From NCBI RefSeq assembly GCF_030013205.1, contig NZ_CP122648.1: a stretch of 64,000 nucleotides of DNA; one strand, 5' to 3'. Numbering within the stretch: the first letter of the stretch is position 1; every line of letters starts with the position of its first letter. Below, in pieces: positions 22,501 to 25,210 of this stretch. Source of the DNA: Escherichia coli. GTDB lineage: Bacteria; Pseudomonadota; Gammaproteobacteria; Enterobacterales; Enterobacteriaceae. A program made the position numbers.

Positions 22501-25210
22501 GAGTGTTGGCCGCGAGGAGCCGTTTTTTTACTGTGTCCCGGTGAAGCCCAAAGGCCTCGGCGATTTTAAAAACACTCCAGTAATAAGCATCACCGATCCC
22601 GCTCACATTTGACATAAGCAACTCCATCTGGCAGGTGAAAATCAGGTTTATTTATATATTTCAATTAATTGCAAACTGGTCTAATGACAGGAAGAAAAAA
22701 ATATTGTACAGGTGAAAAGGGAAATAACTTTTAATTATCAATAAATTACCAAACATGCTGCCGCCGCCATGGAAATGCAAAAACTAGCCTTTTTCCGCGA
22801 CGCTCCCGCCCCGTGGCAAGGCCACCCCACCGGGAGGACCCATGAAAAATGAGAGCAATTATCATTTATGCTCAATTAAACATCAGCATTATCGCAGCCC
22901 CTCACTGAAGGACTGCTGTAATGCTGATTGTTCAACATCAAAAAACCCAATCTGTTGCAAGTTATAAAAGCAACAAACGACATTGCGCGTTAAGATTTTC
23001 TTAATATTTAAGAAATATATTTTTTAATCTCATTTATTTTTGCAAAAGACTTTTCATATGCAGCGTCGAGAAATAAAGAAAATTACTTATTTAATCACTT
23101 TGATTTTAACTACTCTTTTGTTTGTTTATTTTTTAAGAACACCCACCACAATCAATATGAAACAGGCGCATAAAATAAATCAACAACACCAGACAATTTT
23201 CCTTATCCGTCACGGTGAACGATGTGACAGAAGCAAAAATGCATGTCTCTCAAGCAATAAAGGAATTACCGTCAATGGTGCCATTAAAGCTCGTGATTAT
23301 GGAAAAATATTTAGCAATACTTTCCCGTCATTCAGCCTTTACTCCACGGATACCATACGGACAATGCAGACAGCCTGTTTTTTCTCTGGAGGAAAAGCAG
23401 CCTCCCGGATACCGTTGGCTGCAACATGTGGACTTGATGCTGCAAAGAACATACTCAAATTGTCATCCGATAATAAAACTACCGTTATATTCACCCATAA
23501 TCATTGCCTGACACAAATAGCAAAAAAAATGAAATGGTGGAAGTTAAAGCCAGAATATCTTGAAACACTGGTTCTTCATATCGAAAACAATCGTCTCATT
23601 CTTGACGGAAAACTGACTCACGATAAAGCGTAACAATCATTCAAAGAGTCAACATATTTTCTGCATTAACCCCGAACAGTTCCTCTGCCGGGGTTTTGTA
23701 TTAGTTATCGCCTCAACTGAAAATGCGGTCCGTCTTTCAGTGTTTTCCAGTCCCCGCCCCATTCGATGGCAGTTCCCAGCTCTGCGGCAGCCTGCTTAAA
23801 TGCCTGCGCTATTTTCTCGTACAGAGGCCAGTCCCATGACACCTGGCTGCCAACCCAGGCAACAACATCCACCGCATCACCGGTCAGGTGGCGGCTGTTC
23901 ATGGTCTGGCTTTTCCCTTCCGCGACCAGCTGTTTCTGGCGTTCTTTCGTGCGCAGCCCTTCCGTAATACCGAAATCAACCTCCGTCAGCTCCAGCGCAC
24001 GGCGAACGACAGCAACCAGCTGTGGTTTAACGCCCTCCAGATTCTTTTCGCTGCGACGACTAAATCTGAATTTACCCGACATATTCACCTCAACAATGGA
24101 AAGATTTTTGTGACGTTCCCGCGCGCGCGTATCACCAGCACGCAGAACAGCAGATTAAAAAACACTTCAGGCCAGCCCGTTGCTAACGGGCGACCACACA
24201 GATAGCTGAGGGGCGCAAAGGCATACAGCAGCATCAGCAGCCAGGCCAGCCATGACATCAGCGGTTTATGTCTGGAATCACGGCGACGATAAAAAAAGAA
24301 CGTCAGCACGATAACCGTGCATAACGCCACATTCAGCAATCCGGGAAGGTTACTTAACATTGCCGCCTCCTCCGCCCCTCAGGCGGGAGAACAGGCCGGA
24401 CACCAGTGATGCGATATCCTGCTGGTGGATGAATGACAGAATCTTCACTGACACCACCGATACCAGCACCGCACACAGCGCATCTGCCGATGTACCGTCA
24501 TACCCTGTTTTTGATGTAATCCAGGCTGACAGCACACGTGCTCCCAGCACGCCGACGATAAACGACACCAGAAAATGCGCCGCCACACGCCAGGCGGAAA
24601 TCTTCTGCGGCACAGTTGCCACAAACAAAGCCCCCGCGAACGCACCAAACACAATCCCGAAATCCGTTCCGGTGAACAGCCCGAATACCGTCGCCCCTCC
24701 GAGCGCAGCCGCCGTGCCGGAACCGGATAAGGGTTCAGACATACTTTTTTCTCCTGTAAATAAAAAAGGGCCACCAGCGGCCCGTAAAAAAACAACACCC
24801 CGTCAAAGGCACCCGCAGATACCTTTTGTGTGGTGTATTCAGATTTGACATACGCTGAGCAGGGCGAAGAAATGAAAAAGGCCCGCAGTAGCGAGCCATG
24901 AAGAAACTGAATAAAAAAAACCGCCTGGTACGGCGGTTAAGATGAATTTCCAGGTTTTGCTTAATACGTGATTAATCTCAACGTTTTTTATAGATGTTAA
25001 CAACATCGGAATGATGCATCACCGGCCCTGTCAGGAAATACAAAATCTCCACCGATAATGCACCATTACGCTGTTGTAAAAAGACAGCACTGGACTGTAA
25101 CCGATATCACGTATTACAGAACAGGATGTGGATAAAGATTCAGGAAAACATCCCACATATAATATGTCAGTGCCCAAAACAACTTGGTATCGTCTACTGC
25201 TGGAGCGGGT

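What the first reader, a model, noticed from the sequence alone, without database searches (positions are those of the whole stretch)
23040..23633. Prophage-borne Ais/PmrG-like histidine phosphatase
The 197 aa AT-rich ORF is collinear with E. coli Ais, the PmrAB-regulated LPS core heptose(II)-phosphate phosphatase, sharing RH-x-ERCDRS, GITV-G, IFTHNHCLT-IAK and KP-YL motifs as I recall the Ais sequence. It sits between the terminase remnant and the lysis cassette on the opposite strand, with its own AT-rich promoter region. A phage-carried paralogue of an LPS core-modifying enzyme could alter outer-membrane charge, with possible effects on antimicrobial-peptide resistance or phage receptor availability.
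Basis: partly seen in the sequence, partly recalled or inferred. Interest (0 to 1): 0.6.

Follow-up and report, generated by a model that had tools for sequence, protein, structure and literature searches.

The report
Prophage LPS phosphatase wired to PmrA
A defective lambda-like prophage in a pig-pathogenic E. coli carries an intact extra copy of the Ais/PmrG family of lipopolysaccharide-core phosphatases, and the gene appears to be switched on by the host's own PmrA (BasR) envelope-stress regulator, so the finding is real but is a new member of a known enzyme family rather than a new kind of system.

Summary
The ORF is real. Its likely start is ATG 23058, giving 191 aa, not TTG 23040. [quoted passage not shown]

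**Protein**
- It is 45% identical to E. coli K-12 Ais (E 6e-48) and passes the NCBIfam Ais subfamily model.
- It keeps the catalytic Arg-His, second Arg and second His, and four conserved cysteines.
- The predicted structure is confident (pLDDT 95) and matches only histidine phosphatases. It begins with an N-terminal membrane helix.

**Setting**
- The window is porcine ETEC DNA. The gene lies in a decayed prophage integrated at dusA, antisense to the late operon, between the endolysin and the small terminase gene.
- It is low in G+C and followed by a hairpin and T-tract, as expected of a moron.
- Related alleles occupy the same slot in many lambdoid prophages and evolve under purifying selection.

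**New here**
- A PmrA/BasR box (GTTAAG-N5-CTTAAT, 22989-23005) sits 10 nt upstream of a -10 hexamer, exactly as at arnB.
- This layout is conserved across otherwise unalignable promoters of divergent prophage alleles.

The substrate, the regulation and any phenotype remain inferred. This is a new member of a known kind, of moderate interest.

The parts
22989..23005 (+). PmrA/BasR-box-like direct repeat GTTAAG-ATTTT-CTTAAT, in the position of a -35 element
   Evidence: It matches the published box: two xTTAA(T/G) hexamers with a 5-nt spacer that replace the -35 element (PMC10570014). It is one of only 2 loci in the 64-kb window with an exact TTAAK-N6-TTAAK match, against 0.6 expected. Shuffle P for a box in the 150 nt upstream, sense strand, is 0.007. 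The equivalent box is found at -64 to -71 from the start codon in 7 other distinct prophage promoters.
23016..23021 (+). -10-like hexamer TATATT, 10 nt downstream of the box
   Evidence: The 10-nt gap is the same as between the K-12 arnB PmrA box and TAAAAT. Homologues have CATAAT, TATAAT or AATAAT at exactly the same spacing. The probability of a box plus a -10 at a gap of 9-11 nt is 0.0008 in shuffles. No canonical -35/-10 promoter is found in 22600-23750, which fits an activator-dependent promoter.
23058..23633 (+).
   Evidence: RefSeq WP_001189672.1. 45% identity to K-12 Ais, E 6e-48. NF011945 scores 207.9 bits, above the 142 cut-off. dN/dS is 0.1-0.34 against other prophage alleles.
23061..23138 (+). 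N-terminal hydrophobic helix (residues 2-27), a signal anchor or uncleaved signal peptide
   Evidence: The AF2 model has a helix at residues 2-27. The basic n-region RREIKK is followed by an 18-residue hydrophobic stretch (read directly from the sequence). All family members have an equivalent N-terminal hydrophobic segment.
23208..23216 (+). Codons for R51-H52-G53, the RHG motif with the presumed nucleophilic His
   Evidence: R51 and H52 are invariant in the 63-sequence alignment A2. The codons cgt cac ggt can be read.
23496..23498 (+). Codon for H147, the second catalytic His, in the THNHC motif
   Evidence: It is at least 90% conserved in A2, together with T146 and C150.
23668..23702 (+). 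Hairpin (CCCCG...CGGGG) followed by TTTTGTATT, a terminator-like element between the convergent ais-like and endolysin genes
   Evidence: RNA fold energy is -16.1 kcal/mol, z -1.9. The T-tract lies only on the + strand side. It did not pass the strict consensus scan, so the evidence is moderate.

Best explanation
This is a lysogenic-conversion ('moron') gene in the slot between the lysis cassette and the terminase genes of a lambdoid prophage. That is the slot lambda uses for bor.

**The product.** It encodes an inner-membrane-anchored enzyme of the Ais/PmrG subfamily of histidine phosphatases, with its catalytic domain facing the periplasm.

**Expression.** The gene is transcribed antisense to the phage late operon. 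Its own promoter has the -35 element replaced by a PmrA/BasR box, so the lysogen should express it when the host PmrB/BasS sensor is activated. From established knowledge, the activating signals are Fe3+, Al3+, Zn2+, mild acid, or low Mg2+ acting through PmrD.

**Activity.** By analogy with Salmonella PmrG, the enzyme most likely removes a phosphate from the LPS inner core (heptose II phosphate). It would do this as LPS passes the periplasmic face of the inner membrane. The result would be a lower negative surface charge, acting together with the host's ArnT and EptA modifications.

**Shown here:** homology, catalytic residues, fold, membrane helix, moron anatomy, conservation of slot and promoter motif, and purifying selection.

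**Inferred:** PmrA dependence in vivo, the substrate, and any phenotype (tolerance of metals or cationic peptides, or altered phage adsorption).
For: **Homology and catalytic machinery**
- BLASTP to K-12 Ais gives 45% identity, E 6e-48.
- NF011945 scores 207.9 bits against a cut-off of 142.
- R51, H52, R55 and C56 are invariant. E54, D57, C63, R101, C124, H147 and C150 are at least 90% conserved, and all are present here.
- The AF2 model has pLDDT 95.3. Foldseek hits are exclusively histidine phosphatases (SixA 1ujb, TM 0.71).

**Periplasmic location**
- There is an N-terminal helix at residues 2-27.
- Four conserved cysteines fit an oxidising compartment.

**Moron anatomy**
- G+C is 30-42% against 50-58% in the flanks.
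- The gene is on the opposite strand to the late genes.
- A hairpin plus T-tract follows it.
- Homologues of 54-86% identity sit in the same slot in prophages with three different endolysin types and several terminase types.
- The prophage alleles form one clade, with dN/dS of 0.1-0.34.

**PmrA wiring**
- The box GTTAAG-N5-CTTAAT is followed after 10 nt by TATATT. This is the layout of K-12 arnB (CTTAAG-N5-GTTAAT, 10 nt, TAAAAT). The box definition comes from PMC10570014.
- Shuffle P is 0.007 for the box and 0.0008 for the box plus -10.
- Eight other promoters compared, seven of them on prophages or a phage, have the same arrangement at -64 to -71. The -10 of the ninth, a plasmid copy, is poor.
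- Information content is 1.6-1.7 bits per column in the half-sites and 1.5 in the -10. It is 0.5 in the flanks, which are only about 25-45% identical.
- No canonical -35/-10 promoter is present.

**Function of the family**
- PmrG dephosphorylates heptose II in Salmonella (cited in PMC8129183).
Against: - There are no expression, binding or biochemical data for this gene or any prophage allele.
- The box test was defined after I saw the motif, and the promoter comparison was anchored on the best box in each sequence. This inflates half-site conservation, though not the fixed -10 spacing.
- One prophage allele (L016) has a degenerate box.
- The protein is only 45% identical to Ais, and E. coli Ais itself is annotated as 'putative', so the substrate could differ.
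- The Pfam His_Phos_1 match is weak and partial (i-E 0.0021).
- The terminator failed the strict consensus scan.
- Other OmpR/PhoB-type regulators with similar direct-repeat sites, such as QseB, cannot be excluded from sequence alone.
Confidence: 0.55

Rival explanations
1. The protein is a periplasmic histidine phosphatase with the same regulation but a different substrate or purpose. It might act on another LPS phosphate (Hep I phosphate or PPEtN, Kdo, lipid A 1-diphosphate) or another periplasmic phospho-compound. Its selected benefit might be phage-related: changing the LPS-core receptor to block superinfection or re-adsorption of progeny.
For: - Identity to Ais is only 45%.
- The prophage alleles form their own clade, separate from chromosomal Ais.
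- The gene is carried by phages, for which LPS core is a common receptor (established knowledge).
- Relatives also occur on IncI1 plasmids as 'TraG', where the gene is dispensable for transfer. This shows that mobile elements recruit the family repeatedly.
Against: - A receptor-masking function would be expected to be constitutive in the lysogen, not tied to a PmrA box.
- The active-site and cysteine motifs are the same as in Ais.
- There is no PADLOC defence-family match.
Confidence: 0.2
2. The protein acts mainly as a (co-)regulator of adhesin or fimbrial expression, like AfrS of the rabbit EPEC AF/R1 pilus operon, and does not serve to change LPS charge.
For: - GenBank submitters named the frameshifted UMNF18 copy 'transcriptional activator AfrS' (AEJ57056.1).
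- The sister plasmid clade sits next to Pef/AfrB-type fimbrial operons, EAL-domain genes and autotransporter adhesins.
- From memory only, Cantey et al. 1999 reported afrR/afrS as needed for afrA transcription.
Against: - I could not obtain the AfrS sequence or the paper, so the homology is unverified.
- The protein has a membrane helix, a complete phosphatase active site and no DNA-binding domain. Any effect on transcription would have to be indirect.
- The prophage alleles are not next to fimbrial genes.
- The plasmid clade lacks the PmrA box, so the two clades may be used differently.
Confidence: 0.08
3. The gene is decaying cargo of a dead prophage and is not expressed to any effect. The PmrA-box resemblance is a chance feature of AT-rich DNA.
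For: - The prophage is degraded, with pseudogenes for the large terminase, the tape measure and others.
- Some strains carry frameshifted or truncated copies (UMNF18, P13-6).
- A relaxed one-mismatch box pattern is not enriched across the window (6 found, 4.4 expected).
Against: - The ORF is intact and identical in two separately degraded prophages of the same genome. It is at least 99% identical in 27 genomes.
- dN/dS is 0.1-0.34.
- The box, the 10-nt gap and the -10 recur in promoters whose flanks are at random-level identity.
- Exact-box shuffle P is 0.0002-0.007 per promoter.
Confidence: 0.1

Closest known systems
Ais (E. coli b2252) / PmrG (Salmonella): PmrA-activated LPS core heptose(II)-phosphate phosphatase
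   Same: - It falls in the same NCBIfam subfamily (NF011945).
- It has the same length and the same RH-x-ERCDRS...C, RT-QTA and THNHC motifs.
- It has an N-terminal export or anchor segment.
- A PmrA box lies upstream.
   Different: - Identity is only 45% and the gene belongs to a separate clade.
- It is carried by prophages rather than sitting next to arnB.
- Its box is oriented toward the gene with arnB-like spacing. In K-12, the one box between ais and arnB is oriented toward arnB.
- The N-terminus looks like an uncleaved anchor (..FLRTPT) rather than the Ais signal peptide.
- Activity is untested.
Lambda bor and other morons in the lysis-terminase slot of lambdoid phages
   Same: - It occupies the same genomic slot and the opposite strand to the late operon.
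- It has its own promoter and terminator and is expressed from the prophage.
- The product is an envelope protein that changes host surface properties.
   Different: - Bor is an outer-membrane lipoprotein that confers serum resistance and is unrelated in sequence.
- Here the product is an enzyme, and the promoter appears to depend on a host two-component regulator.
IncI1 plasmid 'TraG' (for example R64, pESBL O3K_25647) and other plasmid-borne Ais-like proteins
   Same: - They belong to the same subfamily (P0032 scores 270 bits on NF011945).
- They are carried by a mobile element of Enterobacteriaceae, with matches on 1440 plasmids.
   Different: - Identity is about 43% and the clade is different.
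- The gene sits inside a conjugation operon and is not required for transfer in TnSeq.
- I did not examine these plasmids for a PmrA box.
AfrS of the AF/R1 pilus operon, and the pCROD1 / virulence-plasmid clade next to EAL-domain and fimbrial genes
   Same: - The pCROD1-type plasmid clade is the sister group of the prophage clade (about 54% identity).
- One prophage copy was named AfrS by its submitters.
   Different: - The plasmid genes lie downstream of fimbrial or EAL genes and lack the PmrA box.
- The link to the original AfrS could not be verified here.

Membership tests
Histidine phosphatase superfamily, branch 1 (Pfam PF00300) | RHG motif with the nucleophilic His near the N-terminus of the domain | tested here: met
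   R51-H52-G53 are present. R51 and H52 are invariant in 63 homologues.
Histidine phosphatase superfamily, branch 1 (Pfam PF00300) | Second catalytic Arg and second His completing the phosphate pocket | tested here: met
   R101 (RT-QTA motif) and H147 (THNHC motif) are at least 90% conserved and are present.
Histidine phosphatase superfamily, branch 1 (Pfam PF00300) | alpha/beta fold of the superfamily | tested here: met
   The AF2 model has pLDDT 95.3 and pTM 0.89. All top Foldseek PDB hits are histidine phosphatases: SixA, MutT1 C-domain, RosC, PSP and PGAM5.
Histidine phosphatase superfamily, branch 1 (Pfam PF00300) | Significant match to the Pfam HMM | tested here: inconclusive
   The only match is partial and weak (residues 53-118, i-E 0.0021, 18.2 bits). 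There is no sequence-level PDB hit.
Ais/PmrG subfamily (NCBIfam NF011945, PRK15416) | Score above the curated cut-off over the full length | tested here: met
   207.9 bits against 142, covering residues 9-193 of the 197-aa translation. The K-12 Ais control scores 391.9.
Ais/PmrG subfamily (NCBIfam NF011945, PRK15416) | Export to the periplasmic side, where LPS core is accessible | tested here: inconclusive
   An N-terminal helix at residues 2-27 with a basic n-region is predicted, and four cysteines are conserved. Topology was not tested experimentally and no dedicated signal-peptide predictor was available.
Ais/PmrG subfamily (NCBIfam NF011945, PRK15416) | Transcription activated by PmrA/BasR | tested here: inconclusive
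   The evidence is in silico only: a conserved PmrA box with arnB-like spacing to a -10. There are no binding or expression data.
Ais/PmrG subfamily (NCBIfam NF011945, PRK15416) | Removes the phosphate from heptose II of the LPS inner core | not testable with these tools
   This needs LPS mass spectrometry or NMR, or an enzyme assay. It is reported for Salmonella PmrG (Nishino 2006, as cited in PMC8129183).
PmrG equivalog (NCBIfam NF052369) | Score of at least 170 bits | tested here: not met
   The score is 111.1 bits. K-12 Ais (145.8) and a Salmonella protein named PmrG (119.9) also fail, so this model does not separate the prophage protein from Ais.
Phage moron (an autonomous transcription unit inserted between conserved phage genes) | Own promoter and terminator, atypical base composition, present or absent between genes that are adjacent in related phages | tested here: met
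   G+C is 30-42% against 50-58%. The gene is on the opposite strand, with a predicted activator-dependent promoter and a hairpin plus T-tract (moderate evidence). It occupies the same slot in prophages with unrelated lysis and terminase modules.
AfrS (AF/R1 pilus regulator) | Sequence homology to AfrS of RDEC-1 and a requirement for pilus gene transcription | not tested
   The only link is a submitter's name on a frameshifted copy. The reference sequence and the paper were not obtainable.

The most novel reading that the evidence does not exclude
Lambdoid prophages of E. coli carry a dedicated, diversifying clade of Ais-like LPS phosphatases in the bor slot. The promoters of these genes have been kept as PmrA/BasR-dependent promoters. 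This would be a phage moron that plugs directly into the host PmrAB envelope-remodelling regulon, giving lysogens an extra, inducible reduction in LPS charge.

The allele in this window is found almost only in pig ETEC and oedema-disease strains, sometimes in 2-3 copies per genome and retained in otherwise decayed prophages. It could therefore be under selection from pig-specific PmrAB-inducing pressures such as colistin, pharmacological zinc or iron, or porcine cationic peptides. That last link is speculation.
Probability: 0.4. Interest if true: 0.6.

Novelty: new member of a known kind. Interest (0 to 1): 0.45.

Why it matters
If the inference holds, temperate phages do more than carry toxins and serum-resistance factors. 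They also carry LPS-remodelling enzymes that are placed under the host's PmrAB (polymyxin and metal response) circuit.

That would add a horizontally mobile, copy-number-variable component to a pathway central to colistin and cationic-peptide tolerance. It would do so in exactly the pig pathogens that have been most exposed to colistin and zinc.

It would also offer a clean natural example of a horizontally acquired gene whose promoter has been kept compatible with an ancestral two-component regulator. The practical payoff is modest until a phenotype is shown.

Tried and rejected
1. **Window-wide box enrichment.** With one mismatch allowed, the pattern was not significant (6 found, 4.4 expected). 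I replaced it with exact-match and position-specific tests.
2. **Generic promoter and terminator scan.** It found nothing in 22600-23750. I interpret this as the absence of a -35 element, and the terminator evidence is therefore only moderate.
3. **PmrG equivalog as a discriminator.** I rejected this because K-12 Ais also fails it.
4. **The AfrS lead.** The Cantey 1999 paper and the AfrS sequence were not retrievable. Cluster names gave only 'aluminum resistance protein' or Ais-type names, apart from one UMNF18 entry.
5. **PHROGs and PADLOC.** Neither has a family for this protein, so there is no evidence for a known phage-protein family or defence system.
6. **PDB sequence search.** No hit. 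I used fold comparison instead.
7. **Literature searches.** I found no paper on prophage-borne Ais/PmrG or PmrA-regulated morons.
8. **PmrA boxes upstream of the plasmid clade (L006/L026, L007, L008).** None was found, so the regulatory claim is restricted to the prophage clade.
9. **Rfam scan of 22000-26000.** It found only the tRNA-Gly.
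Full report
**1. Observation**

The ORF at 23040-23633 (+) exists. [quoted passage not shown] That ATG aligns with the start codons of all homologues, so it is the likely start.

The 1.5 kb around the gene is 100% identical to porcine ETEC strains from Belgium, such as ETEC4079. BLASTP against K-12 Ais, taken from NC_000913, gives 72/159 identities and E 6e-48.

**2. The protein**

- NCBIfam places it in the Ais subfamily NF011945 (207.9 bits, cut-off 142). It is below the PmrG equivalog NF052369 (111 bits against 170). 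K-12 Ais itself also fails that equivalog (145.8), so this says nothing against membership.
- Pfam gives only a weak partial His_Phos_1 match, and there is no sequence-level PDB relative.
- The family is small: 118 representatives at E of 1e-3 or better among 1.84 billion.
- In a 63-sequence alignment, R51, H52, R55, C56 and G69 are invariant. E54, D57, S59, C63, R101, Q104, C124, T146, H147 and C150 are at least 90% conserved. All are present here. This is the Arg-His / Arg / His core of branch-1 histidine phosphatases plus four cysteines.
- AlphaFold2 gives pLDDT 95.3 and pTM 0.89, with an N-terminal helix at residues 2-27. Foldseek against the PDB returns only histidine phosphatases. The compact SixA (1ujb) is the best size match, at TM 0.71.
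- A basic n-region, an 18-residue hydrophobic helix and the conserved cysteines all point to a catalytic domain on the periplasmic side.

**3. The setting**

- The window carries a prophage of about 33 kb, at roughly 9150-41800, integrated at dusA. An integrase, Q, a RusA-type resolvase, a repressor and Cro are present. The large terminase, the tape measure and other structural genes are pseudogenes.
- The ais-like gene lies between the small terminase gene (22088-22627, phrog_141) and the M15 endolysin (23705-24088, phrog_465), on the opposite strand.
- Its G+C is 30-42%, against 50-58% in the neighbours.
- A CCCCG/CGGGG hairpin followed by TTTTGTATT lies at 23668-23702.
- This is the anatomy of a moron in the slot that lambda uses for bor (established knowledge).
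- The same genome has a second degraded prophage, next to prfC, with an identical Q-to-terminase module that includes the gene.

**4. Relatives**

- This allele occurs in 28 of 5426 complete E. coli genomes. Of these, 26 are from pigs, and some carry up to three copies.
- Other alleles at 54-86% amino-acid identity always sit between the lysis cassette and the small terminase gene, antisense. They occur in lambdoid prophages with M15, lysozyme or GH108 endolysins and with Nu1/GpA, Terminase_2 or Terminase_4/TerL packaging genes. One is in the Stx1 phage GER2.
- Each of the two other alleles I searched for is rare among complete genomes: 3 and 7 genomes.
- A neighbour-joining tree puts all prophage alleles in one clade. 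One IS-flanked plasmid copy is nested within it. The clade is sister to a virulence-plasmid clade (pCROD1 and others) and is separate from chromosomal Ais and from the IncI1 'TraG' proteins.
- dN/dS among prophage alleles is 0.1-0.34, with dS often saturated, so the protein is under purifying selection.
- Ais-like genes are also found on 1440 plasmids. The IncI1 copy is dispensable for transfer (PMC4288162).

**5. The promoter**

No canonical sigma-70 promoter is detected. At 22989-23005 the sequence is GTTAAG-ATTTT-CTTAAT. This matches the published PmrA box: two xTTAA(T/G) hexamers separated by 5 nt, replacing the -35 element (PMC10570014).

Ten nucleotides downstream is TATATT. The K-12 arnB promoter has CTTAAG-GTTAA-GTTAAT, then 10 nt, then TAAAAT. 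The eptA promoter has CTTAAG-GTTGG-CTTAAT.

Statistical tests:

| Test | Result |
|---|---|
| Exact TTAAK-N6-TTAAK sites in the 64-kb window | 2 loci found, 0.6 expected |
| Box in the 150 nt upstream, sense strand (dinucleotide shuffles) | P = 0.007 |
| Box plus a -10-like hexamer at a gap of 9-11 nt | P = 0.0008 |

The same arrangement recurs at -64 to -71 from the start codon in the other prophage alleles:

| Locus | Box | -10 after 10 nt |
|---|---|---|
| L004, L012 | GTTAAG-N5-CTTAAT | CATAAT |
| L014 | CTTAAG-N5-TTTAAG | TATAAT |
| L022 | CTTAAG-N5-CTTAAG | AATAAT |
| L018, L020, GER2 | CTTAAG-N5-CATAAG | AATAAT |
| L024 | ATTAAT-N5-CATAAG | TATAAT |

Across nine promoters, information content is 1.68 and 1.58 bits per column in the half-sites and 1.53 in the -10. 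It is 0.52 in the flanks, which are only about 20-45% identical pairwise apart from the closest pair.

Caveats:
- The anchoring was on the box, which inflates half-site conservation.
- One allele (L016) has a degenerate box.
- The fimbria- and EAL-associated plasmid clade has none.

I conclude that the prophage clade most likely uses a PmrA/BasR-dependent promoter. This is an in-silico inference.

**6. Mechanism**

The best-supported reading runs as follows. In the lysogen, activation of BasS/PmrB leads BasR~P to bind 22989-23005 and recruit RNA polymerase. The membrane-anchored phosphatase is then made and, at the periplasmic face of the inner membrane, removes a phosphate from the LPS inner core. 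By analogy with Salmonella PmrG (PMC8129183), the target is Hep II phosphate. This would lower surface charge alongside the ArnT and EptA modifications.

The substrate, the regulation in vivo and the phenotype are all inferred.

Rivals:
- A different substrate, or a receptor-masking role.
- An AfrS-like role in adhesin regulation. This is suggested only by a submitter's name on the frameshifted UMNF18 copy and by the fimbrial or EAL neighbourhood of the sister plasmid clade. I could not retrieve AfrS or the original paper.
- Inert cargo of a dead prophage. This is contradicted by conservation, duplication and dN/dS.

**7. Novelty**

Automatic annotation already names the gene. PHROGs has no family for it and PADLOC has none. 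My literature searches found no study of prophage-borne Ais/PmrG genes or of PmrA-controlled morons.

It is therefore a new, unstudied member of a known enzyme family on a known type of element, with one feature that has not been noted before: the conserved PmrA box. The association with pig strains is striking, but it is confounded by clonality and by one large Belgian collection. Any link to colistin or zinc use is speculation.

**8. Verdict**

Interest is moderate at 0.45. It would rise to about 0.6 if PmrA control and LPS-core dephosphorylation were shown.

Noticed in passing
window 25204-27657: The slot between the Q antiterminator and the holins, where stx sits in Stx phages, holds a tRNA-Gly (25204-25275, -), an AraC-family regulator (25693-26544, -; phrog_1450) and a DUF6731/phrog_7651 protein (26716-27657, +). 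All are low in G+C. None has a PADLOC match.
   Followed up: partly
L011 (ETEC4079 chromosome 4336800-4361375): A second degraded prophage next to prfC in the same genome carries an identical Q-AraC-tRNA-holin-M15-ais-DUF1441 module. It also carries a SLATT-domain gene followed by a reverse-transcriptase gene, a possible defence pair.
   Followed up: no
window 24960-24976: The only other exact TTAAK-N6-TTAAK site in the window is the palindrome CTTAATACGTGATTAAT. It lies upstream of the holin genes, in the late-operon leader. I cannot say whether it is a regulator site or chance.
   Followed up: no
window 22628-24088: No Rz/Rz1-type spanin ORF follows the M15 endolysin. The ais-like gene sits directly where Rz and bor lie in lambda. 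The same is true in other prophages with the M15 cassette (L004, L012, L014).
   Followed up: partly
L003 (phage GER2, MG710528.1) 5900-6501: The deposited Stx1-phage record annotates only the last 273 bp of its ais-like gene, plus a spurious antisense ORF. tblastn shows one continuous frame covering residues 27-186, and a PmrA-like box lies upstream.
   Followed up: partly
L007 (pCROD1) 7881-9507; L006/L026: In the sister plasmid clade, the Ais-like gene repeatedly follows an EAL-domain gene. The pair lies next to Pef/AfrB-type fimbrial operons or SPATE/AIDA autotransporters. This recurring EAL plus phosphatase pair might correspond to afrR/afrS.
   Followed up: partly
P0001, P0011 (relatives of the window protein): The 90%-cluster representative has Ala in place of the conserved E54 (RHGARCDRS). 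UMNF18 and P13-6 carry frameshifted or truncated copies. So some copies of this allele may be inactive.
   Followed up: no
window 40883-41455: A Panacea-domain protein gene, a toxin-antitoxin-associated domain, sits at the far end of the prophage near the partial dusA duplicate.
   Followed up: no
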